The notes under the pieces: model-generated
The model's input: only the letters and a program-made list of their open reading frames with translations
The model's database searches: none
Told to the model about the DNA's origin: nothing
Position numbers and translations under genes: made by a program
Shown here: positions 501 through 19,837 of the stretch, one piece after another
Position numbering within the stretch: position 1 is the stretch's first letter
Layout of the letters: each line of letters starts with the position of its first letter
Origin: Gammaproteobacteria bacterium
GTDB taxonomy: Bacteria > Pseudomonadota > Gammaproteobacteria > SZUA-229
Assembly (NCBI GenBank): GCA_036567985.1
Contig: DATCTK010000089.1
Location: forward strand, 29,375 to 93,374
Direction: 5' to 3'
DNA: 64,000 nucleotides

Positions 501-516
501 AACAACTTACCTCCTC

Positions 517-2958: not shown

Positions 2959-3108
2959 GATATCTGGTCTCCTGCTTACCGGGATGACGTTCGTATGGCT
3001 GCTGCTACGGTTAAACGATTATCATCTTTAAATGACCATTGGTGATTGGATACTATTCAATAATTACCGTTTAAAAGCCCATTGTGATAAACACCATGCT
3101 CAAGGCAT

Positions 3109-3339
3109 CTACTTATTGATTTTCAATAGCCGTTTCAGCTCAACTTCATCTGGCTGTCCCCTGCACACCACTTCGTTATCCACCATCAGATTGGGCGAGT
3201 GACGAATATGGTAGCGCGACACAGTCTCCGGATGGTCCTCTGCGAACAAAACTTCATAGGCGACACCCAGATCCTTCAGTTCCTTTTCCATACTGGATCG
3301 ATGGCTACAATTTCGAGTTGCGATAATTTTAACGTTCAT
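3109..3339 (-). CDS. small glutaredoxin/thioredoxin-fold-like protein with a CxxS motif
   Basis: 76 aa, N-terminal KIIATRNCSHRS. The size and pattern resemble glutaredoxin-like proteins. No close family was recognised. Confidence 0.35.
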   Translation of the reverse strand: MNVKIIATRNCSHRSSMEKELKDLGVAYEVLFAEDHPETVSRYHIRHSPNLMVDNEVVCRGQPDEVELKRLLKINK

Positions 3340-3379
3340 AATTATTCCTCACATAAGATGTACAAATAGAAAAGTGGCA

Positions 3380-3820
3380 TCACTGATCAATCACAGGTTT
3401 GCTTTGCAGCTGTAATGCCGACATGTTCGATGACGCTCCCTGGTAAAGCACATCGATGACACGTCCGTCGTCGTCGAACACCAGAGTGTAAGTCCGCTCG
3501 AAATCCGCTAGCGGGCTCTCTATCACTGTTTTCTTTTCACCGCTGGGCGTCACATAGGTTTTAAGTGTGCGATGTTTACTCATGCCGTAGACCCAGCCTT
3601 CGCGACCGTTGGCCAGGCGAACTTCTTTATCTGCCTTGCCGTGATGACTCATCACCGCAAGTTTTTTGAGACTGCCTAGCGGATAGGTTTTTAGCACCTG
3701 TTCGGGGCTGGCTTCATAGGTAAACCGCATGGGCATTTTCATACCATCGGCCATTAGCGACAGTGAGCACAGCATGGTGAGCATGCCGGACAGAAATAAA
3801 ACACCTGTTTTGTTAAACAT
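3380..3820 (-). CDS. hypothetical periplasmic protein (signal peptide)
   Basis: 146 aa with an N-terminal hydrophobic signal-like segment. No recognisable catalytic motif. Confidence 0.4.
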   Translation of the reverse strand: MFNKTGVLFLSGMLTMLCSLSLMADGMKMPMRFTYEASPEQVLKTYPLGSLKKLAVMSHHGKADKEVRLANGREGWVYGMSKHRTLKTYVTPSGEKKTVIESPLADFERTYTLVFDDDGRVIDVLYQGASSNMSALQLQSKPVIDQ

Positions 3821-3888
3821 GATTACATATCCTCATTAGATATTAATAACCGAGAAGACCGGGTCGTGAAGACCCGGACACCAGTGGT

Positions 3889-4371
3889 TTACTTCTTTTC
3901 AAGCTGTTCCATATGCTTGAGCATCTGCTGCATCATGTCCTGCATCATGCCCATGCGCTTTTCCATCATGGCACTGCGATCCGACATGCCACCCATCATC
4001 ATTCCGCCCTGTCCTTTGCCCATGCCCATTCCGTGGCTATCACCCTTGCCATCACTCTGGATCTTGGACATCGTGCCTTTATTATCCATCATCATGCCCT
4101 TGCCATCGGGATTCGGCATCATGCCACGCATTTTTTCCATCATACCCATCATGTCTTTCATGCTTTGCATATGATTATTCATATACTGTTTTTTCTTGCT
4201 GCTGTTATTCTCCTTTTGCATTTTCATTGCCATATCTTCGGCTTTTTCCATCTGCATATTGAACTTGTCGCCCATCATTTTCATATCACCCATATTCTGT
4301 TGAGCATAGACGCTGGTTATGGATGCAGTAGCCAGAAGCAGTGTGGTTACTAATATATATTTTTTCATCAT
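3889..4371 (-). CDS. methionine-rich periplasmic protein, a candidate Cu(I)-binding protein
   Basis: 160 aa. Signal peptide, then many MxxM / MMG / MGMGKGQGGMMMGG motifs. RBS GGAGAC lies upstream. It sits in the copper island. Confidence 0.6.
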   Translation of the reverse strand: MMKKYILVTTLLLATASITSVYAQQNMGDMKMMGDKFNMQMEKAEDMAMKMQKENNSSKKKQYMNNHMQSMKDMMGMMEKMRGMMPNPDGKGMMMDNKGTMSKIQSDGKGDSHGMGMGKGQGGMMMGGMSDRSAMMEKRMGMMQDMMQQMLKHMEQLEKK

Positions 4372-4560
4372 TAAGTCTCCTGTGAAATGTTGATTTAAAA
4401 CTCATGTGGCTCTAAACAATTCATCCATAAATTCTCAGAGCAGGAACAGAAACAGGATAAATTTCTATTTACCCTGTTATTTATTTTCAATGAATCATGC
4501 ATCATCGAAAATAGCGTCACATCTATGTGTCACAACATGCCTTATGTAATCAGTAATTCC

Positions 4561-4833
4561 TTAATTACTGTTTTGTAAAAACGTCAGAATATCCCGTGTC
4601 TCCTGCCCGGTGAGGCCACCGCGCACACGCATATGAAACACAGTAGTGATCCATTGATCGTCACGTAATTCATTTGAATCACGTAAATTATGACAACGCA
4701 TACAGTTATCAGACCAGGCTTTGGCGCCTCGCGCCATATCACCCTGCTCGGGAAAGTCCCCTCCCATCGCAGTCGTGCTGATTAACAAAAAGCCAATGGT
4801 TGCTGTATATATTTCTGGAAATATTTTTTTCAT
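4561..4833 (-). CDS. small c-type cytochrome
   Basis: 90 aa with a signal peptide and a CMRCH haem-binding motif. Confidence 0.6.
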   Translation of the reverse strand: MKKIFPEIYTATIGFLLISTTAMGGDFPEQGDMARGAKAWSDNCMRCHNLRDSNELRDDQWITTVFHMRVRGGLTGQETRDILTFLQNSN

Positions 4834-4844
4834 AGCAATTACTC

Positions 4845-6020
4845 CTAAAATCCGTAGCTAAGTTGTACTAGCCAGCGGTCATCACTTTCCAGGCCAGAGT
4901 TGGGGTTATCATTACTTTCGTAAGCCAGCTTGCCTATAAAATTATTGGTAAACAGCCGATTCAGGCCCAGTGTCAAATGCTCCTGATCCGCACTGGCATG
5001 AGGCGAATCAAATTCACCAGTACGTATCACGGCCTCGTAGTCATCATTGAAAAATTTGTAGGCCAGCTGAAGATACCAGGTCGACCATTCAGCGGCATCC
5101 GATGCATTACTGGTTGCTGCTTCAGCAACCTCGGTTTTTACATATTCACCGCGAACGTCCAACATCGTATTTCGCCAGGAAAAATCCATCCCATTAACAT
5201 CATAATCACGGGTTGGCTCATTGCTTAATGACGGACCCTCTACACCTTCGTACTCAGTTACTCTGGCCTGGCCGGTTAAGAGTGATACACCGATTTCAAG
5301 TGTCGAAATCGGCAGTACCGAAAAGCGTCCGCCGACGACTTTTTCACCGTCCCTGTCACGTCCAAATGCTTCAGCCTCTACACCGTCCAGCTCTACTTCA
5401 CCGTCTTCGACCTCGGCTTTCAACTCAGGACCGTTACCCATGTAGATCGCATAAGTGGCTTTCATGCTACCCAGATAAAAACCACCACGGGCTTGCACAC
5501 CCAGGTCAGATACCGGCGCTGCACCGTCATGACCAAACCCAGCTGGTGCTGATGGCAATTTGTTTATCCAGCACGGATGCAAGTTTTGTCTAAACTGACC
5601 TATTGGGCTTAAAAACTTACCAGCCACCAGCACCAGATAGTCATTTACAAACCAGTCAAGGGTCAGATATTCCAGTGCCGTTTCTGTCTCACCGTCTTCA
5701 CTCGTTGTCAGCTCAAGCTCCGATTCCAGCATCACCAAATCACGGTACTGATAATGAAAAATTGGCGCGAATGTACCCACATTAAAACTGCCATCATCTC
5801 CGCTGGCATCACTATTCACATAGCCCACATCAGCGTAGCCAGCCATGTGAATCAGTGTATTTGGATCACGCCATTCATTTGCTGCAGCCATTTCTGTTTT
5901 GAGTCGTTCAACGTCCTGTTTCAACTGCTCCAGCTCACTTGCTGCAAATCCTGTCGAATTCACGGACATAAGTGACAGCGAACACATTGTCGCCAGATAT
6001 AGTTTTTTTGATTTTTTCAT
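4845..6020 (-). CDS. outer-membrane beta-barrel, porin-like protein
   Basis: 391 aa. Signal peptide, alternating amphipathic segments and a C-terminal ...LSYGF aromatic terminus typical of OMPs. Confidence 0.55.
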   Translation of the reverse strand: MKKSKKLYLATMCSLSLMSVNSTGFAASELEQLKQDVERLKTEMAAANEWRDPNTLIHMAGYADVGYVNSDASGDDGSFNVGTFAPIFHYQYRDLVMLESELELTTSEDGETETALEYLTLDWFVNDYLVLVAGKFLSPIGQFRQNLHPCWINKLPSAPAGFGHDGAAPVSDLGVQARGGFYLGSMKATYAIYMGNGPELKAEVEDGEVELDGVEAEAFGRDRDGEKVVGGRFSVLPISTLEIGVSLLTGQARVTEYEGVEGPSLSNEPTRDYDVNGMDFSWRNTMLDVRGEYVKTEVAEAATSNASDAAEWSTWYLQLAYKFFNDDYEAVIRTGEFDSPHASADQEHLTLGLNRLFTNNFIGKLAYESNDNPNSGLESDDRWLVQLSYGF

Positions 6021-6273
6021 GAGTTATTCCTCATATTTACATTTGGTAATATTTGTAACGCTAGTGAACCGCCGCGCACTACTAAATCCGGTACGCAGGA
6101 GATAGGAGGTCGCAGGATAGAAACTGGAGTCGGTGAATCATGACGCTGATGCACGAACGGAATACTGAAAGAAATCATATTACCTGAGAAGTCAAAAACG
6201 TTAACAGGTGGAACAAGCATACTATGCAGCATGTCGCAGGATTCGCTGCTGCTATCACAACAGCACTGTTTAT

Positions 6274-6525
6274 CTATACATGATGCGCACTGCTCAGCAC
6301 TACCTGAGCGTATCGATAACGCTCCATCATGATGAGCAGTTTTTTTATTATGTGTGCGTGCTTTTCACTTATGCTGTCGACGAGGACGACTTCCGGCTCA
6401 CCGCATTGTTGTTCCTGACTGGCATACATCGTCTCCATTGGCGCTAATATTAAAACCAGCGTCACTGCAGTCGATACAATTTTTTGTGCCTGTCTATTCA
6501 ATTTATTATCCATGTTGTAACGCAA
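6274..6525 (-). CDS. hypothetical small protein; doubtful, no clear RBS
   Basis: ORF only. Between the porin gene and cusA. The ORF-track start uses TTG; an internal ATG (MDNK...) has no Shine-Dalgarno sequence. Confidence 0.15.
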   Translation of the reverse strand: MRYNMDNKLNRQAQKIVSTAVTLVLILAPMETMYASQEQQCGEPEVVLVDSISEKHAHIIKKLLIMMERYRYAQVVLSSAHHV

Positions 6526-6657
6526 TTACATACAAATAAAACGGGGCAACTTATATGTCGATCGTCCTCAACCTATACAATAGTTGAGCAACCCAACATT
6601 AACTCCATGGTTTATATCAGCAGTTATGAACCTGGTTACCAGTACGCATTGTTCACA

Positions 6658-9600
6658 TCACGCTTTTAGTGAACGTGTACGCCACAGAAAATACACCGCT
6701 GGCAACACCAGCAACGTCAGAATCACTGCGCTCAACATTCCACCCACCATCGGCGCCGCGATGCGGCTCATCACCTCAGACCCGGTACCGCTGCCGAACA
6801 TAATCGGTAGCAAACCAGCAATAATGGCACTGGCGGTCATCATCACTGGACGTACGCGCATACCCGCACCGTGCAGCACTGCATGGCGTAACGTTTCCAG
6901 CTTCGGCGCAACACCTTTCGTTTCGTATTCGGATTGCATCTGAGCATAAGCCTGGTTGAGATAAACCAGCATGATCACGCCGATCTCTACCGCCACACCG
7001 GCCAGCGCGATAAAGCCCACGCCCACCGCCACCGAGAAGTTGTAGCCAAGCAGGTACATCAGCCAGATGGCACCGATCATTGCCAGTGGCAAGGTGCCCA
7101 TGATGATGGCGACTTCAGCAAACCGGCGAAAGTTCATGTAGAGCAGCACAATAATGATGACCAGTGTCAGTGGCACCACATAGGTGAGCTTTTCTTTAGC
7201 TCGCAACATGTATTCGTACTGACCGGACCAGGTCACGGAATAGCCTGTTGGGAGTTCCAGTTGCTGTTTGACTGTTATCATGGCCTGCTCGACATAACTG
7301 CCCACATCTACGCCGTCAATATCAACAAAGGTCCAGCCGTTCAGTCGGGCGTTCTCACTCTTGATGGCCGGTGGACCGCCATCCACATAAACATTTGCCA
7401 CGTCGTCGAGCGCAATACGCTGCCCTTTTGGCGTAACGATGGGCAACAATGCCAGCTGTTCCGGAGAGTCACGGTAATCCTGTGGGTAACGCAGATTGAT
7501 TGGATAACGCTCAAGCCCCTCAATGGTCTGCGATACGTTCATACCGCCAATAGCCGTGGCCACCACCTGCTGCACATCGGCGATATTAAGGCCATAACGC
7601 GCCGCCTGTTCACGCTGTACATCCACCTTAATGTAGCGCCCACCGGCTACCCGTTCAGAATAAACCGAGGCCGTGCCGGGTACATCCTTAAGAATCTGTT
7701 CCAGTCGCTGACCAATTTTCTGAATTTCTTGCAGATCCTCACCCGCCACCTTGATACCCACCGGGGTCTTGATACCGGTAGCCAGCATGTCGATACGGGT
7801 TTTAATCGGCATCACCCATGCATTGGTCAGGCCGGGAAATTTCACCAGTGCATCCAGTTCCTTTTTAAGCTTGTCGGTGGTCATGCCATCGCGCCACTGG
7901 TCCTGTGGCTTAAGTTGAATAAACGTCTCTATCATGGTCAGTGGTGCCGGGTCGGTGGCTGTTTCGGCGCGACCAATCTTGCCGAACACGGTTTTTACTT
8001 CTGGCACCGTAGCAATCAGTTTGTCAGTCTGTTGCAGAAGCTCACGCGCCTTACCAATGGACAGACCCGGGTAGGTGGTGGGCATGTACATCAGGTCGCC
8101 TTCATCCAGACTGGGGATAAACTCACTACCGATCTTGTCCACCGGCCAGAAGCCTGCCAGTGTCAGCACCAATGCAACGACCAGGGCCATTTTAGGAAAG
8201 CGCAACACTGTTTTCAGTGCAGGCATGTAGAGCCCAATCAACAGACGATTGACAGGGTTTTTGTGTTCTGGCAGCACCTTGCCGCGAATGAAATAGCCCA
8301 TCAACACCGGCACCAGCGTCACCGCCAGTGCCGCACTTGCTGCCATGGCATAGGTTTTGGTAAACGCGAGCGGACTGAACATCCGACCTTCCTGCGCTTC
8401 CAGCGTGAACACCGGCACGAAGCTGACGGTGATAATCAGCAAACTGAAGAACAGCGCCGGCCCGACTTCCGCCGCCGATTCGGCGACAATCCTCCAGCGG
8501 TTTTCCGCCGTCAATGGCGTACGCTCCATGTGCTTGTGCATGTTCTCGATCATCACGATGGCACCATCGATCATCGCGCCGATGGCAATCGCAATACCAC
8601 CCAGTGACATGATATTGGCATTCAGGCCCTGCCAGTGCATCACAATAAAGGCAGTCAGAATACCCACCGGCAGACTGATAATCGCCACCAGTGACGAACG
8701 TATGTGAAACAGAAACACCATGCATACCAGCGCCACCACTGCGAACTCTTCCAGCAACTTGTGCCACAGGTTTTCCACCGCACGCTCGATCAATCCAGAT
8801 CGATCATAGACGGTGACGATTTCCACGCCCTCAGGTAAACCTGCCTTGAGTTTTTCCAGTTTGTTCTTAACACCATCAATGGTTCTCTGCGCATTCTCAC
8901 CAAAGCGCATCACCACGATACCGCCAACGGTTTCACCTTCACCATTAAGTTCGGCAATACCGCGACGCATCTGCGGCCCCAGTTCAATCTCTGCCAGATC
9001 CTTGAGCAACAAGGGAATACCATTGTCATTCACACCCAGGGGAATGTTGGCCAGGTCGTCAATGCCCTGAATATAACCACTGACCCGTACCATGTACTCG
9101 GCTTCCGCCATTTCCACTACCGAAGCACCCATTTCCTGGTTACCGCGCTGGATCGCCATCTGAATATGCGAGAGAGGAACACCGAACGCACGCAGTTTTT
9201 CCGGGTTCACTTTCACCTGATACTGCTTGACCATGCCGCCGAGCGCCGAGACTTCGGAAACCCCGGGTACTGTCTGCAGCTCGTATTTCAGGAACCAGTC
9301 CTGCAGACTGCGCAGCTGGCTGATGTCATGCTTGCCGGTACGGTCCACCAGTGCGTAGAGATAGACCCAACCCACACCCGTGGCATCCGGCCCCAGTTGT
9401 GGCCGGGCACTGGGCGGCAACGTGGGGGCCACCTGTGACAGGTATTCCAGCACCCGCGAACGCGCCCAGTAGGTGTCGGTATTCTCATCGAATATGACGT
9501 ACACATAGGAATCCCCGAAGAAGGAGTAGCCGCGCACGGTAACCGCACCCGGCACCGACAACATGGCAGTAGTCAGTGGATAGGTAACCTGATCTTCCAC

Positions 9601-9780
9601 CACCTGTGGCGCCTGTCCCGGATAGCTGGTTTTAATAATCACCTGTACATCGGACAGGTCGGGAAGCGCATCCACCGGCGTATTTTTCAGGGAATAAAGA
9701 CCAACGCCCACCAGCAGCAGGGTGGCCAGCAGCACGAAAAAGCGGTTAGCGATGGACCAGCGGATCAACGACTCAATCAT
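6658..9780 (-). CDS. cusA: CusA/CzcA-family heavy-metal efflux RND permease
   Basis: About 1040 aa from the likely start MIESLIRWSIANRFF (ATG at 9778-9780), which overlaps the cusB stop by 8 nt. 12-TM RND architecture and typical HME-RND conserved blocks. Confidence 0.92.
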   Translation of the reverse strand: MIESLIRWSIANRFFVLLATLLLVGVGLYSLKNTPVDALPDLSDVQVIIKTSYPGQAPQVVEDQVTYPLTTAMLSVPGAVTVRGYSFFGDSYVYVIFDENTDTYWARSRVLEYLSQVAPTLPPSARPQLGPDATGVGWVYLYALVDRTGKHDISQLRSLQDWFLKYELQTVPGVSEVSALGGMVKQYQVKVNPEKLRAFGVPLSHIQMAIQRGNQEMGASVVEMAEAEYMVRVSGYIQGIDDLANIPLGVNDNGIPLLLKDLAEIELGPQMRRGIAELNGEGETVGGIVVMRFGENAQRTIDGVKNKLEKLKAGLPEGVEIVTVYDRSGLIERAVENLWHKLLEEFAVVALVCMVFLFHIRSSLVAIISLPVGILTAFIVMHWQGLNANIMSLGGIAIAIGAMIDGAIVMIENMHKHMERTPLTAENRWRIVAESAAEVGPALFFSLLIITVSFVPVFTLEAQEGRMFSPLAFTKTYAMAASAALAVTLVPVLMGYFIRGKVLPEHKNPVNRLLIGLYMPALKTVLRFPKMALVVALVLTLAGFWPVDKIGSEFIPSLDEGDLMYMPTTYPGLSIGKARELLQQTDKLIATVPEVKTVFGKIGRAETATDPAPLTMIETFIQLKPQDQWRDGMTTDKLKKELDALVKFPGLTNAWVMPIKTRIDMLATGIKTPVGIKVAGEDLQEIQKIGQRLEQILKDVPGTASVYSERVAGGRYIKVDVQREQAARYGLNIADVQQVVATAIGGMNVSQTIEGLERYPINLRYPQDYRDSPEQLALLPIVTPKGQRIALDDVANVYVDGGPPAIKSENARLNGWTFVDIDGVDVGSYVEQAMITVKQQLELPTGYSVTWSGQYEYMLRAKEKLTYVVPLTLVIIIVLLYMNFRRFAEVAIIMGTLPLAMIGAIWLMYLLGYNFSVAVGVGFIALAGVAVEIGVIMLVYLNQAYAQMQSEYETKGVAPKLETLRHAVLHGAGMRVRPVMMTASAIIAGLLPIMFGSGTGSEVMSRIAAPMVGGMLSAVILTLLVLPAVYFLWRTRSLKA

Positions 9781-11401
9781 GCTGATGCTCCTGCTGAGGA
9801 CTGTCGGGGCGCATACCATTAGGGTCGTTTTGCTCCGGCATTAACATCGCATCGTGGTTCATCCCATCACGCTGACTGTGATCCATTTCAGCCGGCATGG
9901 CATCGTCAGCTGACTCCTGATCCGGGATATGCACCTGGGTCAGCTGGTAATTTCCGTCACTGTCCCTGCTGATCTGCACATGCAGGCGCATTCCCGCTTT
10001 GAGTGCGTCCATGTCCACGCCCTCATCAACAGTAAAGTCCATGGTCATCGCCGGCCACTGCCAGTCTGCTATCGCCTCGTGCTCAAGCGTAACCATGCGA
10101 TGCCCCGGCATCAGCTCATTGATTTGCGCACCCACCCAGACTGAACGCGGGCCAGCGTCTGCTCCCGCAGCGCTCGATTTTTCGCCTTGCGAGCCACGCG
10201 GGGCCATACGCTTGAAGTCCGACGTCTTGCTGGACTCCGAGTCGATCAGGAACTGTGCAGAGGTCACAATGCGTTCCCCCTCGTTGAGGCCCGAGCGGAT
10301 TTCCACCTGATCCTCACCCACGCGCCCGATCTTTACCGCCAGCGATTTAAATTGACCATCACCCAGCGCCAGCACTACCCGCGACTGGCTGCCGGTACGA
10401 ATCAATGCTTCGCGTGGTATTAACAGCGCTTTATCCCCCGGCCGGGTTTCAATAATCATCTGCGCGAACATACCCGGCTTCAGAAAAGCATCCGGATTAT
10501 CAAAATACACACGAACCTGCGCGGTGCGGGTCTTCTCGTTTAACGACGGATAGATATAATTCACCTCTCCCTGCCATTCACGGCCGGGCAGATAATCCAG
10601 CCACATGCGCACCTTATCGCCTTCTCTGACCCGATCCACCTGACGCTCGAAGACTTCTCCGATCACCCAGATGTGTTCCAGCTGCCCAATGCTCATCATA
10701 TTCATGCCAGGCTTAACATACATGCCCTCACGAACCGTGAGATTGTCCACTACCCCCGAACGGGGTGCGGCAACGGTGATGGTCTGATTAACTTTGCGGG
10801 TTTTGCGTAAGCGCTCGATATCCGCCCGCGGTACTTGCAGCGACAACAGGCGTTCCACCGCCGCGCTAATTAGCAAAGCATTGCCGCGCTTCAAGGCCAA
10901 CAGTAATTCCTCCTGGGCATTGACCAGAGTGGGTGAATAGAGTGCGTACAACGGCTTCCCCTGCGTCACCGGATCACCCACCGATTTGACGTAGAGTTTT
11001 TCAATCCAGCCTTCCACCCTGGGATGCATGTGAGTCAGGCGGTCTTCATCGTACTGCACATAGCCTACGGTTTTGACATCAAGGTCGAGCCGTCCAGATT
11101 CCACCCTGGCGGTGCGAACACCGAGATTGTTGATGACCTCGGGCGAGATTTTAACGGTACCGACTTCATCATTCCCGGCACCGTCCGCATAAACCGGAAT
11201 CAGGTCCATGCCCATGGGCGATTTGCCGGGTTCATCGCGCTGGTAGTTGGGATCCATAGGTGCCACCCAGTAAAGCGGCTTGCGTTCACCGCCGTTTGCT
11301 GTCGCGCCCTGTTCATTTGAGCTGCTCAACAACCAGACAGCGGATGCGCCGAGCAGCGCACCAATAGCCACGCCCAGTATAGTTTTGCTCAATGTATTCA
11401 T
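9773..11401 (-). CDS. cusB: RND periplasmic adaptor (CusB/SilB-like) with a C-terminal CusF-like metallochaperone domain
   Basis: 542 aa. The MFP core runs up to ...QFLIDSESS. A ~150-aa extension follows with VWVGAQINELMPGHRMVTLEHEAIADWQWPAMTMDFTV (CusF-like H/M/M/W pattern) and a His/Met-rich tail. Confidence 0.85.
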   Translation of the reverse strand: MNTLSKTILGVAIGALLGASAVWLLSSSNEQGATANGGERKPLYWVAPMDPNYQRDEPGKSPMGMDLIPVYADGAGNDEVGTVKISPEVINNLGVRTARVESGRLDLDVKTVGYVQYDEDRLTHMHPRVEGWIEKLYVKSVGDPVTQGKPLYALYSPTLVNAQEELLLALKRGNALLISAAVERLLSLQVPRADIERLRKTRKVNQTITVAAPRSGVVDNLTVREGMYVKPGMNMMSIGQLEHIWVIGEVFERQVDRVREGDKVRMWLDYLPGREWQGEVNYIYPSLNEKTRTAQVRVYFDNPDAFLKPGMFAQMIIETRPGDKALLIPREALIRTGSQSRVVLALGDGQFKSLAVKIGRVGEDQVEIRSGLNEGERIVTSAQFLIDSESSKTSDFKRMAPRGSQGEKSSAAGADAGPRSVWVGAQINELMPGHRMVTLEHEAIADWQWPAMTMDFTVDEGVDMDALKAGMRLHVQISRDSDGNYQLTQVHIPDQESADDAMPAEMDHSQRDGMNHDAMLMPEQNDPNGMRPDSPQQEHQHD

Positions 11402-11413
11402 ACTTGAATTCCT

Positions 11414-12754
11414 TTAAAACGTTTCTACCGACTGCGCATCGTCAGGCGATACCTGGGCAAGCAGGTAATTGATCTGAGAAATAATTTTCTGTCGCTCCAC
11501 GGCGATATCAAGCGCATCAATTTTGGCATTCAACTCGGCAATACGCGCCCTCACAGCTTCAGCGAAGTCGCCGTCGTCATTGTTGTATGCTGTCAGTGAT
11601 GCGCTTGCCTGCTCCACCATCTGTGGCAGCAGCTGCTCGGTATAAAGTATCTGGCGCTCTTCCAGACGTTCCAGTTGTACACGCGCGGTTTCCAGTTCTG
11701 CCATCAACTGGCGGGCAAGCAACTGCTTTTCTGTTTTGATGACTTCGCTTCGGTTAACGGCGGCACTCACTTCCCTGTCCTGCCGGTTAGCGGTGAAAAC
11801 GGGCAAATCAAACGTCACACCAATAGAAAACAGATCGGCTCTGTCTCGCCCCAGTGGATCACTGTCGCGGTAGCCGTATTGAGCTGTCAGGCCCCATTCG
11901 GGTTTGTATTTCTGCTTCGCCAGATCAACGCCGGTTTCCGTTGCGTCGATACGCTGATCCAGTGCGCGCAAAGCGGGATGATGGCGGATTGATTCATATA
12001 AATTTTGCGTGCTGGCTGTTTCAGTGGATGGAGATGTCAACGATCTCACAGGAGAGATCGTTGGCAAAACTGGTGCGATGGTTGTTGTGGCAGGCGCTCC
12101 AATCCATTCAGACAGACGTTGCTGTGCAGACTGCTGTTTTTGCCTGAGCACTGTCAGGCGATCAGACAGCCGAGTCAGCTCGAGCTGCGCACGGATCACA
12201 TCATGCTGGCGCACTCGGCCCAGCGCCGATGAATAACTGGCTTCGGTGACGTCCACCAGTTGTTCGAAAAGGACACGATCCTGCTCGATCAGCCGGATAG
12301 TTTCCTGTGCCTTATAGGCTTCGAGCCACAACTGGGTGACCGTGGCGGTTACGCGGGCGCGACGGTTCATTCGCAGCAGAGGATGCTGCTCTGCAAGCTG
12401 CCGCTTTTGTTGCTGAGTGAGCGACAGGCTGTCACCCCGGGGGAACATCTGTGAGATACCTACCGATAACTGGGTCATGGCTTCCTGGTTGATATCGAAA
12501 GTGTCTACCGGAAAATTACCAGCCATCAGACTTATTCGTGGATCAGGTAAAGTCGCTGCAGCGCTCGCCTCATCAGTAAGCGCCTGCTGGGTATACTGGC
12601 TACCGCTAAGCCAGGGATCGGCATGCGTGGCTAAAGTGACTGCCTGTTCCAGAGTCAGGACTTCAGGAAGAGATTGTGCAACGGCCACTGCACTGCCCAT
12701 AGTAAGCAGCGGGGTGAGCGGCAGAATAAAAAACATTGTGATGAAAATTCTCAT
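11414..12754 (-). CDS. cusC: outer-membrane factor (TolC/CusC family) of the RND efflux system
   Basis: 446 aa. Signal peptide, OMF-type repeats. It overlaps the downstream cusB operon and the upstream copG by ATGA. Confidence 0.85.
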   Translation of the reverse strand: MRIFITMFFILPLTPLLTMGSAVAVAQSLPEVLTLEQAVTLATHADPWLSGSQYTQQALTDEASAAATLPDPRISLMAGNFPVDTFDINQEAMTQLSVGISQMFPRGDSLSLTQQQKRQLAEQHPLLRMNRRARVTATVTQLWLEAYKAQETIRLIEQDRVLFEQLVDVTEASYSSALGRVRQHDVIRAQLELTRLSDRLTVLRQKQQSAQQRLSEWIGAPATTTIAPVLPTISPVRSLTSPSTETASTQNLYESIRHHPALRALDQRIDATETGVDLAKQKYKPEWGLTAQYGYRDSDPLGRDRADLFSIGVTFDLPVFTANRQDREVSAAVNRSEVIKTEKQLLARQLMAELETARVQLERLEERQILYTEQLLPQMVEQASASLTAYNNDDGDFAEAVRARIAELNAKIDALDIAVERQKIISQINYLLAQVSPDDAQSVETF

Positions 12755-13287
12755 GGCTGCACTTCCTGTTGATTAAATGGCTGATGTTGCTGAGCCACGC
12801 TTTGCACACTAGCAAACACGTCTGTGCGTCCATCTTTTTTTATCAGCAAAACCTGGTAAGGCATAAACTTATCCTGGTACTCCATCCCCGGACTACCAAC
12901 GGGCATGGACGGCACTGTCAGCCCTATAGCGTCAGCAGGTGGACTAGCCAGAAACTGATGAATATAACGAGCAGGGATATGTCCCTCAAAGATATAACCT
13001 TGTGACGACACGGCTGTATGACAAGAACGCTGGTTATTCGCTATTTGATAACGATCCTTGATGGCGTCAAGATTTGCCGGATGCTCGGCACCTGCTTGTA
13101 AGCCCTCTGCTTCGATGTGATCTATCCATTTCTTACAACAGCCACAGGCTGGGGTCTTGTAGACCGTAAGCATTTCTGCATCACCGGCAGTTTGTTCAGA
13201 TGCCTGAAGTGTTTGCGATACACTGTTACAGGCTACAAGCAAGGGGATCAACGCTGGCACCAAACCCGTTAATTTAAACCGATGCAT
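12751..13287 (-). CDS. copG: DUF411 / CopG-family periplasmic copper-binding protein
   Basis: Trimmed to ATG at 13285-13287 (MHRFKLTGLVPALIPLLVAC..., preceded by a GGAGGT RBS). It has the CGCC motif (TPACGCCKKW) characteristic of DUF411. Confidence 0.75.
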   Translation of the reverse strand: MHRFKLTGLVPALIPLLVACNSVSQTLQASEQTAGDAEMLTVYKTPACGCCKKWIDHIEAEGLQAGAEHPANLDAIKDRYQIANNQRSCHTAVSSQGYIFEGHIPARYIHQFLASPPADAIGLTVPSMPVGSPGMEYQDKFMPYQVLLIKKDGRTDVFASVQSVAQQHQPFNQQEVQP

Positions 13288-13473
13288 GGTTACCTCCAGA
13301 AACATATAGTTTGCATGCTTGAGGGTTCGATAGCAGATTGACAGATTTATTTCTGACAACCACAGACCGGTGTTTAGTTGTCAGCATGCCTAACACACAA
13401 TGGTTGTAAGTGAACCGTTCAGGCGCATGGTTTATTCGACTACCCACCACAGTTTTGCCTTCAGTATCAGTCA

Positions 13474-14814
13474 TCAGTGCTGCTCATGAGTATTGCTCTC
13501 ATGCTCGACTTTTCTTGAGTGTAAAAATAACAGTTCACCAATCGCAATCAGCAGCATTGCAATAACAGCGACACCAATAACAAATGGATCGGAATTAAGC
13601 TTCACCCAGATAAACCCAGCCAGTACCAGCAAGTTTAAAATAATTGCCGTAAACGGAACCCAACGACTGGCCTGAACATCGTGTAGCAGGTAACGCAATA
13701 CGCCCCACTGTAATGCCACATCCATTATCAGATAGAAGATAATACCCAGCGCAGCGATGCGGGACAGGTCGAAAAACGCAGTAAGCAGCAGACCCAGCAC
13801 TACGGTATAAACTAGTGTGTGTTTCTGAACGCTGCCTGGCATACCAAAGTGTCTATGCGGCACCAGCTTCATTTCTGACAACATCGCCAGCATTCTGGAC
13901 ACTGCAAAAATACTGGCAATAATTCCCCCTGCAGTTGCCATCATGGCAATCGCCACTGTGAACCAGACGCCGTACTCGCCAAGCGCAGGTCGAGCAGCTG
14001 CCGCCAGTGAATAATCACGGGTCTCAATAATCTCACTAAGGGAAAGATTACCGGCGACGGTAAAGCCGACCAGCATGTAGATAACAACACAGGCAGCGAT
14101 TGAAATAACAATGGCCCGACCAACATTGCGACGCGGATCGATTATCTCAGATCCACTATTAGTAATAGTAGTAAAACCCTTGAATGCCAGAATACCAAGT
14201 GCTGTAGCACCGAGAAAGCTGCCGACGACACCACTGTTTTGCTGGGAGCTGAAATTAACTGTAACACCATCAATCAGACTGACACCCACCAGGCCAAAAA
14301 CCAGTATGCCGCCGATTTTCAATATACCAATGAAGCCCGCGACTCTCTGGATCGACCGATTACCTAGCAGATTTATAACGAACGCGGTCAGAATAAGCGC
14401 CACACCCAGCACCGGCACCATCAGGCCAGACTCATCACCGCCAAATAATTGCATGGTATAGGCACCGAATGTACGGGCTAGAAAACTTTGTGCAATCACC
14501 ATTGAGAAGTACATTAACAACGCATTGAATGCGGTAGGCAATCGATCACCATAAGCCTTGTAAAGATACATGCCTATGCCACCCGCAGATGGATAAGTGT
14601 TAGAAATTTTGATGTAGGAATAAGCGCTAAAAGACACAATTACAGCGGCAGCCAGAAAAGCCAGCGGAAACAACACGCCTGTCATTTCAGCCATCTGACC
14701 TGTCAGGGCAAAAATACCGGCGCCAATCATGACCCCGGTACCCAGCATAACTGTACCTGCCAGAGTCAGGCTTCCCTCTGCATAGCTCGTTTTATGATCT
14801 TGTTGTTGCGTCAT
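13474..14814 (-). CDS. APC-family amino acid permease
   Basis: 446 aa, about 12 TM segments, with the typical APC N-terminal glycine-rich TM1 (GAGIFALTG). Confidence 0.75.
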   Translation of the reverse strand: MTQQQDHKTSYAEGSLTLAGTVMLGTGVMIGAGIFALTGQMAEMTGVLFPLAFLAAAVIVSFSAYSYIKISNTYPSAGGIGMYLYKAYGDRLPTAFNALLMYFSMVIAQSFLARTFGAYTMQLFGGDESGLMVPVLGVALILTAFVINLLGNRSIQRVAGFIGILKIGGILVFGLVGVSLIDGVTVNFSSQQNSGVVGSFLGATALGILAFKGFTTITNSGSEIIDPRRNVGRAIVISIAACVVIYMLVGFTVAGNLSLSEIIETRDYSLAAAARPALGEYGVWFTVAIAMMATAGGIIASIFAVSRMLAMLSEMKLVPHRHFGMPGSVQKHTLVYTVVLGLLLTAFFDLSRIAALGIIFYLIMDVALQWGVLRYLLHDVQASRWVPFTAIILNLLVLAGFIWVKLNSDPFVIGVAVIAMLLIAIGELLFLHSRKVEHESNTHEQH

Positions 14815-14953
14815 GCTATTCCTTAATTTTCACTTCGATGCAGTGACGACATGAAGACGGATTAAGCAGCTAAAGGTTACTGGCACTCTCACCCAGGTAA
14901 CCCCGCTGTTGTTTTATGGTTATCTAACATAAGTTTTCTTCAATAACCGATCC

Positions 14954-15514
14954 TCAATGATGACCAGAATCACCCACATCGCGTACGCTCAGTATCTGGT
15001 ATTGCGGCGACGATAACTCTGGCAGACGCTGCAAGAAAGCCACCATATTCCAGATGCGCTCATCATCATGGCCCGCACCCCAGGCAGGCATACCTGACGC
15101 CTTGATACCGTGCTTGATAATCCAGAAATGCTTCCGCGCTCGCACGCTGACATCCTCCTGATGATTTTCGGTTTGGGTGAGGTCTGGTGGCTGTGGATAA
15201 AGTCCCAGGGTAAAGTCGCTCTGAGTCACGCCCGGTTTTAGATGGCAACCAACGCACATATCATTGTAATCTGCACCACCAGCCAACAACCGCTCGGCCG
15301 AAGCCAAATCGGTTGGCACCTGAATGTCGCTTGATGCGCGAGCAATGGATCGCTCACGCAAGGTTTCCAGCGCCCAATATGTCAGGTCGTTATGATGATC
15401 ATCGGCACCCATCGGATAAAAGCCTGAAAAGAGGAACCCCACACCAGTCACCACCGCCACGCTCGCTGCAGCGACAAGACACTTAAAACAGGACAGAATT
15501 TTAAAGAACGCCAT
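14954..15514 (-). CDS. c-type cytochrome (class I-like)
   Basis: 186 aa. N-terminal TM/signal segment and a CVGCH haem-binding motif. Confidence 0.65.
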   Translation of the reverse strand: MAFFKILSCFKCLVAAASVAVVTGVGFLFSGFYPMGADDHHNDLTYWALETLRERSIARASSDIQVPTDLASAERLLAGGADYNDMCVGCHLKPGVTQSDFTLGLYPQPPDLTQTENHQEDVSVRARKHFWIIKHGIKASGMPAWGAGHDDERIWNMVAFLQRLPELSSPQYQILSVRDVGDSGHH

Positions 15515-15546
15515 GTTATCTCCTGAGATATCGCGACCTGTTATTT

Positions 15547-15822
15547 TTAGTGCTGGTGCCTGGAGAGCTTTGTTGCAGCTGTTTTATCGTCATGCGAGTC
15601 CCCCTCGTTCTGACGCATGGCTTTCATACATTTTTTCATCATGGCCTGCGTCAGCGGATCATCCATGTTCATTTTTGAGTGATCCATATCTTCCATCATC
15701 GAACAGTCTGGCGCCGATGCCTGCGCCTCTTTCATGTGTTTGTCGGGGGAATGCGCGTGAGCTGACAGAGCAAGCATTAATGCCGGCAGAGCAACGAGAT
15801 AAGAGCGTATTTGTGGTTTCAT
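15547..15822 (-). CDS. small secreted His/Met-rich protein, a candidate periplasmic copper chaperone
   Basis: 91 aa. Signal peptide, then HAHSPDKHMKE...CSMMEDMDHSKMNMDD...MMKKCMKAM...SRHQH. RBS AGGA lies upstream. Confidence 0.5.
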   Translation of the reverse strand: MKPQIRSYLVALPALMLALSAHAHSPDKHMKEAQASAPDCSMMEDMDHSKMNMDDPLTQAMMKKCMKAMRQNEGDSHDDKTAATKLSRHQH

Positions 15823-15967
15823 GGTGTGTTTCCTAAAAGCTGTTCAAAGCATAAATAAATCAATTACAATCTGCGCCGTACCCCGGCAACAATGGCCGAA
15901 ACACGACCTGCTGCACTCAGTTATTGCACAGATTAACCTGCCCCCCCTGTCAGGCAGATGACCAATA

Positions 15968-15984
15968 CATTACAAAGATGTCAT
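15968..15984. promoter_or_regulatory. CusR/CopR-type copper-box-like palindrome in the divergent promoter between the cytochrome operon and cusRS
   Basis: CATTACAAAGATGTCAT. Its reverse complement ATGACATCTTTGTAATG matches the ATGACAAnnTTGTCAT CusR-box consensus at 12 of 14 positions. It lies ~70 bp upstream of cusR. An outer ATTACA...TGTAAT inverted repeat also spans 15969-15994. Confidence 0.45.
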
Positions 15985-16051
15985 CCTGGTGTAATCTTGC
16001 TGTAGGGAATGTCCCGCTAAACTGATACACACTGTAATAAGCGAGGCATCT

Positions 16052-16744
16052 ATGCGATTACTGCTGGTGGAAGACGAAATTAAAACTGGCGACTACTTGC
16101 GACAAGGTCTAACTGAAGCCGGCTTCCAGGCAACCCTGGTTAGAAATGGACTAGATGGTCACCACCTGGCAATGACCGAGTCATTCGATCTGATTGTGCT
16201 GGATGTCATGCTGCCCGACGTGGATGGCTGGCGCATAGTGCAGTCACTGAGGGAAGCCGAAAACCAGACACCCGTGTTGTTTCTGACCGCGCGTGACAGC
16301 GTGGATGATCGCGTCAAGGGGCTGGAGTTAGGAGCGGATGACTATCTGGTAAAGCCCTTTGCTTTTGCTGAGTTACTGGCGCGAGTGCGCACTCTGTTGC
16401 GTCGAGGATCGGCCCCACCTCTGACGGATCAGCTCAGAGTGGCCAACCTCACCCTGGATTTACCCAGGCATCAAGTGACACGCGCCGGCCGGAAAATCAG
16501 CCTCAGTCATAAGGAATTCTGCCTACTGGAACTGCTGGTGCGACGTCAGGGTGAAGTGTTGCCACGTTCACTGATCGCCTCTCAGGTGTGGGACATGAAT
16601 TTTGACTCCGATACCAACGTGATCGACGTCGCCATCCGTCGCCTACGCGCCAAAATTGACGACAACTTCAAACCCAGGCTGATCCATACGGTACGCGGCA
16701 TGGGTTACAAGCTCGACGCAGAAGCTGACAATGAAAACAACTGA
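16052..16744 (+). CDS. cusR: OmpR-family heavy-metal response regulator
   Basis: 230 aa. REC domain (LLVEDE..., [14 protein letters not shown]), then a winged-helix output domain. It pairs with the downstream kinase. Confidence 0.88.
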
Positions 16745-18137
16745 GCGTCACCCACTTTCACTGACCGCCAGGGTGATGATTTTTGTCGCACTGGCCATCG
16801 GTATCAGCATGGTGCTGATTGGCCATCTGGTATTGAATGCTGTTGAGCGCCATTTCACCGAACAGGACGCGGACGAGCTGAACGTGATTAACCAGGCTGT
16901 GGTGGAGACCTTGCAGAGTATGGATGACCCACTGCAGCAACCAGAAGCTCTGTCTAATGCGGTCTCGGGACACCACGGCGTTTATTTTCAGGTATTGAAC
17001 AACCGTGACCGGGTTATCTTCAGTACGCCAGGCGCAGACTTCGCACAATCCGCCGCAGGATTATCCGCGGTTCAGAAAATTCACGCTGGAAACGTGAATA
17101 TCTGGCACACAGATAGAACAACCTACCGGGGCGTCGTCACACAGTTTGTCAGTGGCGATCAGGAATACCGAATTACCACAGCCATCGACATGAACTTTCA
17201 CCTGCATTTTCTGCAGGAATTTCGCCGCAGCCTGTGGCTTATTATGATACTCACTGGCGGCGTGACTCTGCTGGCAGCATGGTTCGGCGTGCATCAGGGA
17301 CACGCACCTTTACGAGGTCTATCGGACAAACTGCGTAATATTCAGGCAGATCGTCTACATGTGCGGCTTGACCTCCGCAGCCTGCCCCTGGAGCTACAGG
17401 ATATGGCCACAGCGTTTAATCAGATGATCGGCCGACTGGAAGACAGCTTCACGCGGCTGTCACATTTTTCCGCTGACATTGCCCACGAACTGCGAACCCC
17501 ACTGACGAATCTCATCACCCAGACCCAGGTTGCATTGGGTAAAGCAAGAACACTGGACGAGTACCGTGAGCTCCTCTACTCCAATCTGGAGGAACAGGAG
17601 CGTCTGGCCAAGATGGTCAATGATATGCTCTGGCTGGCCAAGAACGACCATGGCCTTATCAAACCGGAGCTGGTAGCCCTGGATCTGTCTAGTGAGCTTA
17701 AGAAACTGTTCGAGTTTTTTGAAGCGCTAGTAGCGGAAAAGCATATTACCCTGTCCCTGGAAGGACATGCGCCAGCGGTAAGCGGTGATCGCGCGATGAT
17801 GCGTCGGGCGATCTCAAACCTGCTGTCAAATGCCATCCGTCACACCCCGGCAGGTGAGCAGATACAGGTGCGCCTAAATCTAACAAGCAATAATATGGTG
17901 TCGCTGAGCGTGGCCAACCCGGGTGCCGAAATACCCGCAGAGCAGCTGAAACACATATTTGACCGCTTTTACCGTGCAGACCCGTCAAGAACACGCCAGA
18001 GTGAGGGTGCTGGACTCGGCTTAGCGATTGTTCGCTCCATTGTTGAGGCACACGGTGGACGTGTCGATGCAAGATCGAATCGACACATCACCACATTCAC
18101 AATCACGCTGCCCAGCTCAAAAAGTGAAAGTAACTGA
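16731..18137 (+). CDS. cusS: heavy-metal sensor histidine kinase
   Basis: 468 aa. Two TM segments flank a periplasmic domain, then HAMP, an H-box ([12 protein letters not shown]) and a HATPase domain. It overlaps cusR by 14 nt. Confidence 0.88.
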
Positions 18138-18301
18138 ATATTAAATTTTGTTCTTGTTAGGCTGACCACATTATCACCACCCGTTATTCTCTGTAAGAAT
18201 TGTGCAATGTGCAGCCAATCGCAAATAGCACTTATACATCACTTTAAAGACAAGCCACGTAATAAGTTATTGTTTATATTGTAAATATTTGATTATTTTT
18301 T

Positions 18302-18328
18302 GAGGTTCAAGTCCTCTTCTCGGCACCA
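18302..18328 (+). other. tRNA 3'-end fragment (T-arm, acceptor and CCA), a putative genomic-island attachment-site remnant
   Basis: GAGGTTCAAGTCCTCTTCTCGGCACCA reads as a T-loop GGTTCAAGTCC plus acceptor 3' strand and CCA. The upstream sequence is AT-rich and cannot form the rest of a tRNA. It sits in a 940-bp non-coding gap between the copper island and the TA/helicase module. Confidence 0.5.
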
Positions 18329-19079: not shown

Positions 19080-19385
19080 ATGAGAATCATCGCCTTATCA
19101 ACACTGAAGGCTTTTTGGGAAAGACATCCAGAGTATATGGATGCTAAAGAACCAACTTTAGCCTGGTACCGCCATACATTAGCTGCCGACTGGAGTGCAC
19201 CTGCTGATGTTAAACAGGACTTCAAAAATGCCAGCATCCTTAAAGATGGGCGTGTAGTTTTCAATATTGCGGGGAATAAATATCGTCTGGTCGTGTGGAT
19301 CAACTATGCCTATCGAGTGACTTACATCCGGTTCATCGGTACCCATGCGCAATATGAAAAATTCGTCAGGAACGAATTTTCATGA
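19080..19385 (+). CDS. higB: type II toxin-antitoxin system toxin, HigB family (RelE/ParE superfamily)
   Basis: 101 aa. NIAGNKYRLVVWINYAYRVTYIRFIGTHAQYEKF resembles E. coli HigB (…NVGGNELRVVAMVFF…CYIREVMTHKEYD). The toxin gene comes first, as in higBA. Confidence 0.75.
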   Translation: MRIIALSTLKAFWERHPEYMDAKEPTLAWYRHTLAADWSAPADVKQDFKNASILKDGRVVFNIAGNKYRLVVWINYAYRVTYIRFIGTHAQYEKFVRNEFS

Positions 19386-19468
19386 GCAGAGCGAGCCCGA
19401 AGGGAGAGGCTCATGGACGAGCCGAATACAAAATTGATGTACAAACTATTTAATTGCCGGAGGAAACT

Positions 19469-19837
19469 ATGGACATCAAACCAATTAAAACTGATGCTGA
19501 CTACCGAGCGGCATTAAAAGACATTGAAGGTCTGATGACAGCAGGTGTTGACACACCTGAAGGGGAAAAGCTCGACGTTATGGCCACCCTCATTGAGGCC
19601 TATGAAGCGAAGCATTTTCCAATGGATTTACCCGACCCTGTTGAAGCCATCAAATTTGAGATGGAGCGTAAAGGCTTAACAGTAAAAGACCTTGAGCCCA
19701 TGATTGGTAAAAGCAATCGTGTGTATGAGATTCTCAACCATAAGCGCTCACTGACGCTGAAAATGATCTGGAAGCTACATAAAGGATTGGGCATTCCTGC
19801 GGAGTCGTTGATTAAACCACCGCAAGCGCATGCTTAA
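19469..19837 (+). CDS. higA: HigA antitoxin, an XRE-type HTH protein
   Basis: Start trimmed to the ATG preceded by a GGAGGAAACT RBS. C-terminal HTH (LTVKDLEPMIGKSNRVYEILNHKRSLTLKMIWKLHKGLGIP). Confidence 0.75.
   Translation: MDIKPIKTDADYRAALKDIEGLMTAGVDTPEGEKLDVMATLIEAYEAKHFPMDLPDPVEAIKFEMERKGLTVKDLEPMIGKSNRVYEILNHKRSLTLKMIWKLHKGLGIPAESLIKPPQAHA

What the first reader, a model, noticed from the sequence alone, without database searches (positions are those of the whole stretch)
9773..11401. CusB adaptor with a fused C-terminal CusF-like copper chaperone domain
After the canonical MFP C-terminus there are ~150 extra residues. They contain WVGAQINELMPGHRMVTLEHEAIADWQWPAMTMDFTV (a His-Met-Met-Trp pattern like CusF) and a His/Met-rich tail. 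A comparable fusion is known for SilB of Cupriavidus. Here it coincides with the absence of any stand-alone cusF gene in the operon. That suggests the chaperone function has been internalised.
Basis: partly seen in the sequence, partly recalled or inferred. Interest (0 to 1): 0.5.

Follow-up and report, generated by a model that had tools for sequence, protein, structure and literature searches.

The report
CusB adaptor with fused CusF domain
The copper/silver efflux pump adaptor gene in this window really does carry a built-in CusF-type copper-chaperone domain, but this fusion is already described and is the normal form of the gene in many marine gammaproteobacteria.

Summary
The observation and the interpretation both hold. 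ORF 9773..11401 (-) encodes a 542-aa protein. Residues 12-401 match the whole of E. coli CusB. After an ~18-residue disordered linker, residues 420-491 form a CusF domain (Pfam PF11604, E=4e-23). The predicted five-stranded barrel is closest to the SilB C-terminal domain 2L55 and to CusF/SilF. The Cu(I)/Ag(I) ligands H441, W449, M452 and M454 are invariant in 48 homologues. A disordered 51-residue His/Met-rich tail follows. The gene lies in a DUF411-cusC-cusB-cusA cluster next to cusRS, and no other CusF-like ORF exists in any frame of the 64 kb.

It is not new. The SilB domain was solved in 2011, and a 2012 survey reported 22 gammaproteobacteria with fused CusB-CusF. Here, 116 of the 120 best homologues and 75 of 80 reference-genome loci carry the fusion. 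The exact protein is already in public assemblies with PF11604 annotated.

One caveat applies to the "internalised chaperone" logic. Close relatives that lost the barrel also have no cusF within 10 kb, so a missing stand-alone cusF is not specific to fused genes. The His/Met tail is kept even in those relatives and is the least-studied part. Interest is low.

The parts
9773..11401 (-). cusB-cusF fusion gene (542 aa): CusB-type periplasmic adaptor with a C-terminal CusF domain and a His/Met tail
   Evidence: ORF. Pfam HMBD, HlyD_D23 and CusF_Ec. NCBIfam CusB and CusF. PDB matches.
11321..11401 (-). N-terminal hydrophobic signal or anchor segment (about residues 1-27; no lipobox Cys)
   Evidence: Sequence MNTLSKTILGVAIGALLGASAVWLLSS read directly. 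pLDDT below 50. Its role as a signal or anchor is inferred.
11192..11272 (-). N-terminal metal site of CusB type (HMBD, residues 44-70) with three invariant Met: M49, M63, M65
   Evidence: Pfam PF19335 E=1.7e-8. Translation YWVAPMDPNYQRDEPGKSPMGMDLIPV. M49, M63 and M65 invariant in 48 homologues. This stretch aligns with the E. coli CusB N-terminal region.
10199..11158 (-). Adaptor core (residues 82-401): membrane-proximal, beta-barrel, lipoyl and three-helix domains
   Evidence: Aligns to CusB chain 3t51_B residues 4-323 (E=6.9e-48) and to 3ne5_B. HlyD_D23 E=8e-83.
10145..10198 (-). Flexible linker (residues 402-419, PRGSQGEKSSAAGADAGPR)
   Evidence: pLDDT 31-33 over residues 386-415. Variable in length and sequence among homologues.
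9929..10144 (-). CusF-like five-stranded beta-barrel domain (residues 420-491)
   Evidence: PF11604 over residues 421-491, E=4.4e-23. pLDDT 92-96 with five strands. Foldseek top hits 2L55 (SilB-Cter), 2VB2 (CusF) and SilF. Translation.
10040..10081 (-). Cu(I)/Ag(I) ligand motif H441-x7-W449-x2-M452-x-M454
   Evidence: Translation HEAIADWQWPAMTM. All four residues invariant in 48 full-length homologues and in 30 C-terminal sequences. Motif present in 116 of 123 relatives.
9776..9928 (-). Disordered His/Met-rich tail (residues 492-542) containing EMDHSQRDGMNHDAMLMP and ending EHQHD
   Evidence: Translation. pLDDT 36-47. Tails of similar composition in 113 homologues, median 56 aa and 20% His+Met. 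Retained in relatives that lack the barrel.
9773..9780 (-). 8-nt overlap ATGATTGA between the cusB stop and the cusA start
   Evidence: Sequence read. The same 8-nt overlap is in the gene calls of L001. Translational coupling is inferred.
6658..9780 (-). cusA, HME-RND pump (1040 aa from the ATG at 9780)
   Evidence: TIGR00914, 1272 bits. Aligns end to end with E. coli CusA, 1379 bits, with M573, M623 and M672 conserved.
11414..12754 (-). cusC-like outer membrane factor (446 aa), 12 nt upstream of cusB
   Evidence: Pfam OEP E=2.6e-31. Spacing read.
12751..13287 (-). DUF411 (CopG-like) gene overlapping the cusC start by 4 nt
   Evidence: PF04214 E=7.9e-21. 178-aa gene call in L001.
16052..18137 (+). 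cusR-cusS two-component regulator genes, divergent from the copper cluster
   Evidence: ORFs. Response_reg/Trans_reg_C and CusS/HisKA/HATPase_c annotations on the near-identical contig L001.

Best explanation
This is the periplasmic adaptor of a CusCBA-type Cu(I)/Ag(I) efflux pump with the CusF metallochaperone built in as a C-terminal domain, as in SilB of Cupriavidus metallidurans. Shown here: the protein has a complete CusB core, the N-terminal three-methionine site (M49, M63, M65), a flexible linker, a CusF-fold barrel with the full His/Trp/Met/Met ligand set, and a disordered His/Met tail. Its partner CusA keeps the periplasmic three-methionine cluster. Inferred from the E. coli Cus and Sil mechanisms: the tethered barrel captures periplasmic Cu(I)/Ag(I), possibly helped by the tail. 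It passes the ion to the N-terminal methionine site of the same or a neighbouring adaptor. That site then loads or switches on CusA, which expels the ion through CusC. With six adaptors per pump, six chaperone domains would be held at the pump entrance. This replaces diffusion of a soluble CusF with a high local concentration and a fixed 1:1 stoichiometry.
For: Domain architecture from Pfam and NCBIfam. CusB aligns over residues 12-401, and SilF, CusF and SilB-Cter over 406-490. The barrel model has pLDDT 92-96, with linker and tail disordered. The best structural match is SilB-Cter 2L55, followed by CusF and SilF, and these are the only significant hits. H441, W449, M452, M454 and M49, M63, M65 are invariant in 48 homologues. 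CusA conserves M573, M623 and M672. The gene sits in a cusC-cusB-cusA run with an 8-nt cusB/cusA overlap, next to cusRS. No other CusF-like ORF occurs in the 64 kb. The architecture is conserved in 116 of 120 top homologues and 75 of 80 reference loci. Metal binding by the SilB C-terminal domain and CusF-to-CusB N-terminus transfer are documented in PMC4446572 and PMC10407283.
Against: No experiment exists for this protein; metal binding and transfer are inferred by homology. Relatives that lost the barrel have no cusF within 10 kb either, so the barrel may be dispensable or may serve another role. In E. coli, soluble CusF also takes Cu(I) from CopA (PMC7558416), which a tethered domain could do only if the pump sits beside CopA. 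The full-length model (pTM 0.41) gives no reliable position for the barrel relative to the N-terminal site. The rest of the genome could not be searched for a separate cusF.
Confidence: 0.85

Rival explanations
1. The CusF-fold domain and the tail act mainly as a periplasmic metal buffer, or as a sensor or switch that controls pump activity. In this view they are not an obligatory relay that feeds CusA.
For: Barrel-less relatives nested among fused ones keep the His/Met tail and have no cusF within 10 kb, so the pump apparently works without a CusF step. The flexible C-terminal end of plasmid SilB binds Ag+ in fast exchange, and a lever or switch role has been proposed for it (PMC10407283). 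The locus also encodes other secreted Met-rich proteins that could buffer metal.
Against: The exact CusF ligand set is invariant across the family, and the N-terminal acceptor site is invariant too. That pattern is what a transfer pair would predict. CusF-to-CusB transfer is established for the separate proteins (PMC4446572).
Confidence: 0.1
2. The fusion is an artefact: a sequencing or assembly error removed the stop codon between separate cusB and cusF genes.
For: Nothing specific. The window does carry at least one homopolymer-length difference from a near-identical contig elsewhere.
Against: The identical 542-aa protein is encoded on two independent public assemblies. The same continuous architecture, with a conserved linker position, occurs in 75 of 80 reference genomes from many genera and in 116 of 120 top homologues. 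The reading frame is unbroken from the CusB core into the barrel.
Confidence: 0.01
3. The extension is a generic OB-fold or a degenerate CusF relic that no longer binds metal.
For: Some Alteromonadales relatives carry a second CusF-like copy in which the His and the first Met are replaced, so degenerate copies do exist in this family.
Against: In the window protein all four ligand positions are intact and invariant among homologues. Generic OB-fold proteins score about 500 times worse or more by E-value than the CusF, SilF and SilB hits in the fold search.
Confidence: 0.04

Closest known systems
SilB of Cupriavidus metallidurans CH34 (C-terminal domain PDB 2L55; Bersch et al. 2011, Urbina et al. 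2016)
   Same: The layout is the same: an N-terminal three-Met site, the adaptor core, and a C-terminal CusF-like barrel that binds Ag(I)/Cu(I). 2L55 is the best structural match (rmsd 1.8 A, 30% identity) and a sequence hit. The SilB membrane-proximal construct 5a4g also matches.
   Different: SilB is a betaproteobacterial protein. From my own recollection it is 521 aa and ends with the barrel. The window protein adds a 51-residue disordered His/Met tail after the barrel. Sequence identity in the barrel is only about 30%.
E. coli CusCFBA (CusB 3NE5/3H94; CusF 1ZEQ/2VB2)
   Same: CusB aligns over its full length. CusA scores 1379 bits with the Met cluster conserved. The CusF fold and the H36/W44/M47/M49-type ligand set are conserved. 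The locus is next to cusRS.
   Different: In E. coli, cusF is a separate gene (order cusCFBA) encoding a soluble protein. Here the domain is fused to the C-terminus of CusB, no separate cusF is nearby, and a DUF411 gene leads the cluster.
Fused CusB-CusF genes reported in gammaproteobacteria (Hernandez-Montes et al. 2012, PMC3548706)
   Same: [quoted passage not shown] This is the class the window gene belongs to.
   Different: The survey did not describe the tail, the tandem or degenerate second copies, or the barrel-less derivatives seen here.
Plasmid SilB/SilF of Salmonella (SilF 8BXJ, 8BBZ, 8BHU; PMC10407283)
   Same: SilF is the best sequence match for the barrel (E=3.6e-6). The flexible Met/His-containing C-terminal end of plasmid SilB binds Ag+, a precedent for a disordered metal-binding tail on an adaptor.
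   Different: SilF is a separate protein. The plasmid SilB tail is short (about residues 403-430) and follows the core directly, without a barrel.

Membership tests
CusB-type HME-RND periplasmic adaptor (membrane fusion protein) | Four-domain adaptor core (membrane-proximal, beta-barrel, lipoyl, three-helix bundle) homologous to CusB | tested here: met
   HlyD_D23 E=8e-83. NCBIfam CusB model covers residues 8-400, and TIGR01730 scores 137 bits, above its cutoff of 94.9. 3ne5_B E=1.5e-62 over residues 12-401. The CusB model NF007303 itself scores 260 bits, below its strict cutoff of 390, so the protein is a diverged CusB-type adaptor rather than an E. coli-like CusB as defined by that NCBIfam subfamily model.
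CusB-type HME-RND periplasmic adaptor (membrane fusion protein) | N-terminal three-methionine Cu(I)/Ag(I) site | tested here: met
   PF19335 over residues 44-70. M49, M63 and M65 invariant in 48 homologues. The stretch aligns with the E. coli CusB N-terminus.
CusB-type HME-RND periplasmic adaptor (membrane fusion protein) | Encoded next to a CusA-type RND pump and an outer membrane factor | tested here: met
   The cusC (11414-12754), cusB and cusA (6658-9780) genes are contiguous on the minus strand.
CusF / CusF_Ec domain (PF11604) | Sequence match to the family profile above the curated threshold | tested here: met
   81.4 bits against a cutoff of 27, E=4.4e-23, profile positions 2-71 of 72.
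CusF / CusF_Ec domain (PF11604) | Small five-stranded beta-barrel (OB-like) fold | tested here: met
   The AlphaFold model has five strands with pLDDT 92-96. TM-scores normalised to the target are 0.76-0.85 against 2L55 and 2VB2.
CusF / CusF_Ec domain (PF11604) | Metal site His + 2 Met with a capping Trp (H36, W44, M47, M49 in E. coli CusF) | tested here: met
   H441, W449, M452 and M454 have identical spacing and align with the SilF ligand stretch. All four are invariant in homologues.
CusF / CusF_Ec domain (PF11604) | Binds Cu(I)/Ag(I) and exchanges it with the CusB N-terminal site | not testable with these tools
   This requires purified protein and metal titration or NMR. It is shown only for E. 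coli CusF/CusB and for C. metallidurans SilB (PMC4446572; PMC10407283).
SilB-like fused adaptor-chaperone architecture | CusF-like domain in the same polypeptide, C-terminal to the adaptor core | tested here: met
   One uninterrupted ORF with the core at 82-401 and the barrel at 420-491. The same arrangement occurs in 75 of 80 related genomic loci.

The most novel reading that the evidence does not exclude
The least-explored element is the disordered His/Met tail (MDHSQH/GMxHD-type repeats), not the barrel. The tail is kept even in relatives that deleted the barrel. It could be a third, functionally distinct metal-capture module: a flexible 'antenna' on each of the six adaptors that hands Cu(I)/Ag(I) to the tethered barrel or directly to the pump. 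In that case this clade's pumps would run a three-station intramolecular relay that has not been characterised.
Probability: 0.25. Interest if true: 0.35.

Novelty: already known. Interest (0 to 1): 0.15.

Why it matters
It matters little beyond correct annotation. The gene should be annotated as a CusB/SilB-type adaptor with a fused CusF domain, and the pump as a Cu(I)/Ag(I) exporter that needs no separate cusF. More broadly, the prevalence of the fusion (and of tandem and barrel-less variants) in marine gammaproteobacteria supports a point already raised in 2012. CusF's role as a freely diffusing carrier, as drawn from E. coli, is not the general case, because a pump-tethered chaperone is common. 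The conserved disordered His/Met tail is a modest, testable lead for people studying metal relay in HME-RND pumps.

Tried and rejected
1. Stand-alone cusF in the window. A six-frame HMM scan, an E. coli CusF phmmer search and a relaxed motif scan found none.
2. The C-terminal region as query in the word-indexed protein search returned only 3 hits. One of them, P0121, is just an internal-Met fragment of a fused adaptor, so that search was uninformative. The exhaustive representative search was used instead.
3. Promoter and terminator scan of 5900-16100. Counts were no higher than in shuffled sequence, so operon boundaries remain undefined.
4. The primary SilB papers (PubMed 21299248 and 27145046) are not held in the library. 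Their content is cited only through reviews and the 2023 JBC paper.
5. The full-length AlphaFold model was meant to show where the barrel docks. With pTM 0.41 and a disordered linker, no conclusion was drawn.
6. The idea that fusion compensates for the loss of cusF was tested on barrel-less relatives. They also lack a nearby cusF, so the compensation argument is not supported as a strict rule.
7. Sequencing artefact as the cause of the fusion was rejected.
8. Pfam and NCBIfam gave no family for the small Met/His-rich ORFs.

Full report
**Observation.** E. coli CusB (407 aa) aligns to residues 12-401 (3ne5_B, E=1.5e-62), which leaves 141 extra C-terminal residues. The quoted peptide lies at residues 422-458. 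The His/Trp/Met/Met pattern is H441-x7-W449-x2-M452-x-M454 (window 10040..10081). The last 51 residues (9776..9928) form the tail. Measured over the last 55 residues (488-542), it is 20% His+Met, against 6.6% for the whole protein.

**What the extension is.** Pfam places a CusF_Ec domain (PF11604) at residues 421-491 with E=4.4e-23. The score is 81 bits against a cutoff of 27, and the match covers nearly the whole profile. NCBIfam's CusF model also hits residues 427-475.

By sequence alone, the extension matches SilF (E=3.6e-6), the C-terminal domain of C. metallidurans SilB (2L55) and E. coli CusF. The ligand stretch HEAIADWQWPAMTM lines up with HEAIPAVGWPAMTM of SilF.

AlphaFold models of the full protein and of residues 400-542 both give a five-stranded barrel at 420-491 with pLDDT 92-96. 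It is flanked by a disordered linker (386-415, pLDDT ~31-33) and a disordered tail (496-542, pLDDT 36-47). In a Foldseek search of the PDB the top hit is the SilB C-terminal domain (rmsd 1.8 A, 30% identity). CusF and SilF follow, and these are the only 14 significant matches; generic OB folds score about 500 times worse or more by E-value.

**Conservation.** In an alignment of 48 full-length homologues (54-93% identical), H441, W449, M452 and M454 are invariant. So are M49, M63 and M65 of the N-terminal HMBD, the stretch that aligns with the E. coli CusB N-terminal metal site. In a separate alignment of 30 C-terminal regions the same four ligands are again invariant.

**Context.**
- The gene sits in a minus-strand run: DUF411 (12751-13287), cusC-like OMF (11414-12754), cusB-cusF (9773-11401), cusA (6658-9780).
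- cusB starts 12 nt after the cusC stop. Its stop overlaps the cusA start by 8 nt (ATGATTGA). That overlap also explains why the protein family ends in ...H-D.
- The window's CusA aligns end to end with E. coli CusA (1379 bits). It keeps M573, M623 and M672, the periplasmic Cu(I)/Ag(I) cluster (read from the alignment).
- cusR and cusS lie divergently at 16052-18137.
- The wider minus-strand cluster also holds a YHS/HMBD P-type ATPase (517-2958), two c-type cytochromes and several secreted Met-rich ORFs.
- A six-frame scan of all 64 kb found no CusF-like sequence other than this ORF.

**How common it is.**
- Of the 120 best homologues, from Alcanivorax, Kangiella, Parahaliea, Lacimicrobium, Arsukibacterium, Spongiibacter, Halomonas, Alteromonas, Thalassomonas and others, 116 carry PF11604 inside the adaptor. 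The ligand motif is present in 116 of 123 retrieved proteins, and some have two or three copies.
- In 80 loci from GTDB species-representative genomes, 75 have the fused domain, and about 30 of those also have a second, weaker copy. None has a stand-alone CusF-like ORF within 10 kb.
- An exhaustive search of 1.84 billion representative proteins with the barrel alone gave 483 clusters at E<=1e-3. Of the 149 best retrieved, 36 are full-length adaptor fusions. Another 41 carry a partial adaptor core in front of the domain; these are probably fragments of fusions. The remaining 72 have no adaptor core.
- The exact 542-aa protein is already present on two public assemblies, with PF11604 listed among its domains.

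**Literature.** The review PMC4446572 states that C-terminal metal-chaperoning domains of HME adaptors were demonstrated in SilB of C. metallidurans, and that these domains also occur as stand-alone CusF. PMC10407283 repeats this and adds that plasmid SilB binds Ag+ at its flexible C-terminal end. [quoted passage not shown] The phenomenon is therefore already described for the very class this window belongs to; the nearest reference genomes are Haliea and Porticoccus at ~71% identity.

**Mechanism.**
- Shown: the protein contains every element of the CusF-to-CusB-N-terminus-to-CusA relay in a single polypeptide plus its cognate pump.
- Inferred: the tethered barrel captures Cu(I)/Ag(I) and transfers it to the three-Met site of the same or a neighbouring adaptor. 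That site then loads or activates CusA. With the CusA3B6C3 stoichiometry, six barrels would ring the pump entrance.
- Caveat: five reference loci and four database proteins encode close relatives (69-75% identical in the core) without the barrel. They keep a His/Met tail directly after the core, for example MDHSQHQDMDHSQH... in L072, and have no cusF within 10 kb. In a quick neighbour-joining tree they are nested among fused proteins in at least two places, which suggests secondary loss. The barrel is thus dispensable in some lineages. Absence of a neighbouring cusF is a trait of the whole clade rather than a signature of 'internalisation'.

**The tail.** Tails of similar length and composition follow the barrel in 113 homologues (median 56 aa, 20% His+Met). 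They share recurring MDHSQH / GMxHD motifs and vary in repeat number. From my own knowledge, these resemble the Met/His repeats of Pseudomonas CopA/CopB-type proteins; that resemblance was not tested here. The Ag+-binding flexible C-terminus of plasmid SilB is a precedent. This is the only part of the finding that is not well covered by published work.

**Verdict.** Both the observation and the interpretation are confirmed. The feature is nonetheless an ordinary, already-described architecture, correctly recognised by standard domain annotation. Interest is low.

Noticed in passing
window 3889..4371 (-) and 15547..15822 (-): Two small secreted proteins with no family match. One is 160 aa and 25% methionine. 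The other is 91 aa, Met/His-rich, contains 'MDHSKM' and lies divergent from cusR. Both may be soluble periplasmic Cu(I) binders of a non-CusF type.
   Followed up: partly
window ~6016..6525 (-), poly-A run near 6330: A Cys-rich 165-aa ORF just downstream of cusA is intact on the 99.4%-identical contig L001 (A8). In the window it is split by a 1-nt shorter homopolymer (A7). This is a sequencing error, a pseudogene or a phase-variable tract.
   Followed up: partly
window 19080..22199 (+): A HigB toxin and an HTH antitoxin are followed by an AEP-TOTE primase-helicase gene (ResIII/Helicase_C) interrupted by one in-frame TAA at 21390-21392. The region 18-24 kb has low GC (0.43-0.47).
   Followed up: partly
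window ~18317: Synteny with contig L001 (99.4% identity over window 1..18317) ends just after cusS. L001 continues into His_Phos_1, sulfate transporter and Usp genes instead of the HigBA/TOTE island. The flank next to the copper cluster is therefore variable between strains.
   Followed up: partly
window 34648..39233 (-): A second CusA-like RND pump (1047 aa) sits with an adaptor (481 aa) that has two N-terminal HMBD copies, one of them Cys-containing (CPMHPD...CPICGM). It has no CusF domain, no His/Met tail and no adjacent outer membrane factor. A 162-aa Cys-rich ORF of unknown family lies upstream at 39374..39862.
   Followed up: partly
loci L044-L082 (Pseudoalteromonas, Alteromonas, Thalassotalea and others); proteins P0084, P0101, P0106, P0111, P0117: Many Alteromonadales adaptors carry a second CusF-like domain after the first. 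In it the ligand His and the first Met are replaced (for example ISREAIKKWxRPxATxDF), so it is probably a non-binding or altered-specificity copy. Other proteins (P0085, P0093, P0098) have 2-3 copies with intact ligands.
   Followed up: partly
loci L037, L039, L050, L072, L076; proteins P0086, P0094, P0097, P0113: These close relatives lack the CusF barrel but keep a His/Met-rich tail fused directly to the adaptor core. They are nested among fused proteins in a quick tree, which suggests repeated clean loss of the barrel.
   Followed up: partly
window 9773..9819 (-): The longest-ORF start for cusA (ATG at 9819, 1053 aa) is probably wrong. The ATG at 9780 matches Met1 of E. coli CusA and the gene call on L001, and it overlaps the cusB stop by 8 nt.
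   Followed up: yes
window 517..15822 (-): About 15 kb of same-strand genes form one copper-handling cluster. It runs from the Met/His-rich 91-aa ORF through cytochrome c, an amino-acid permease, DUF411, cusCBA, a porin-like 391-aa protein, cytochrome c and Met-rich ORFs to a YHS/HMBD P-type ATPase.
   Followed up: partly
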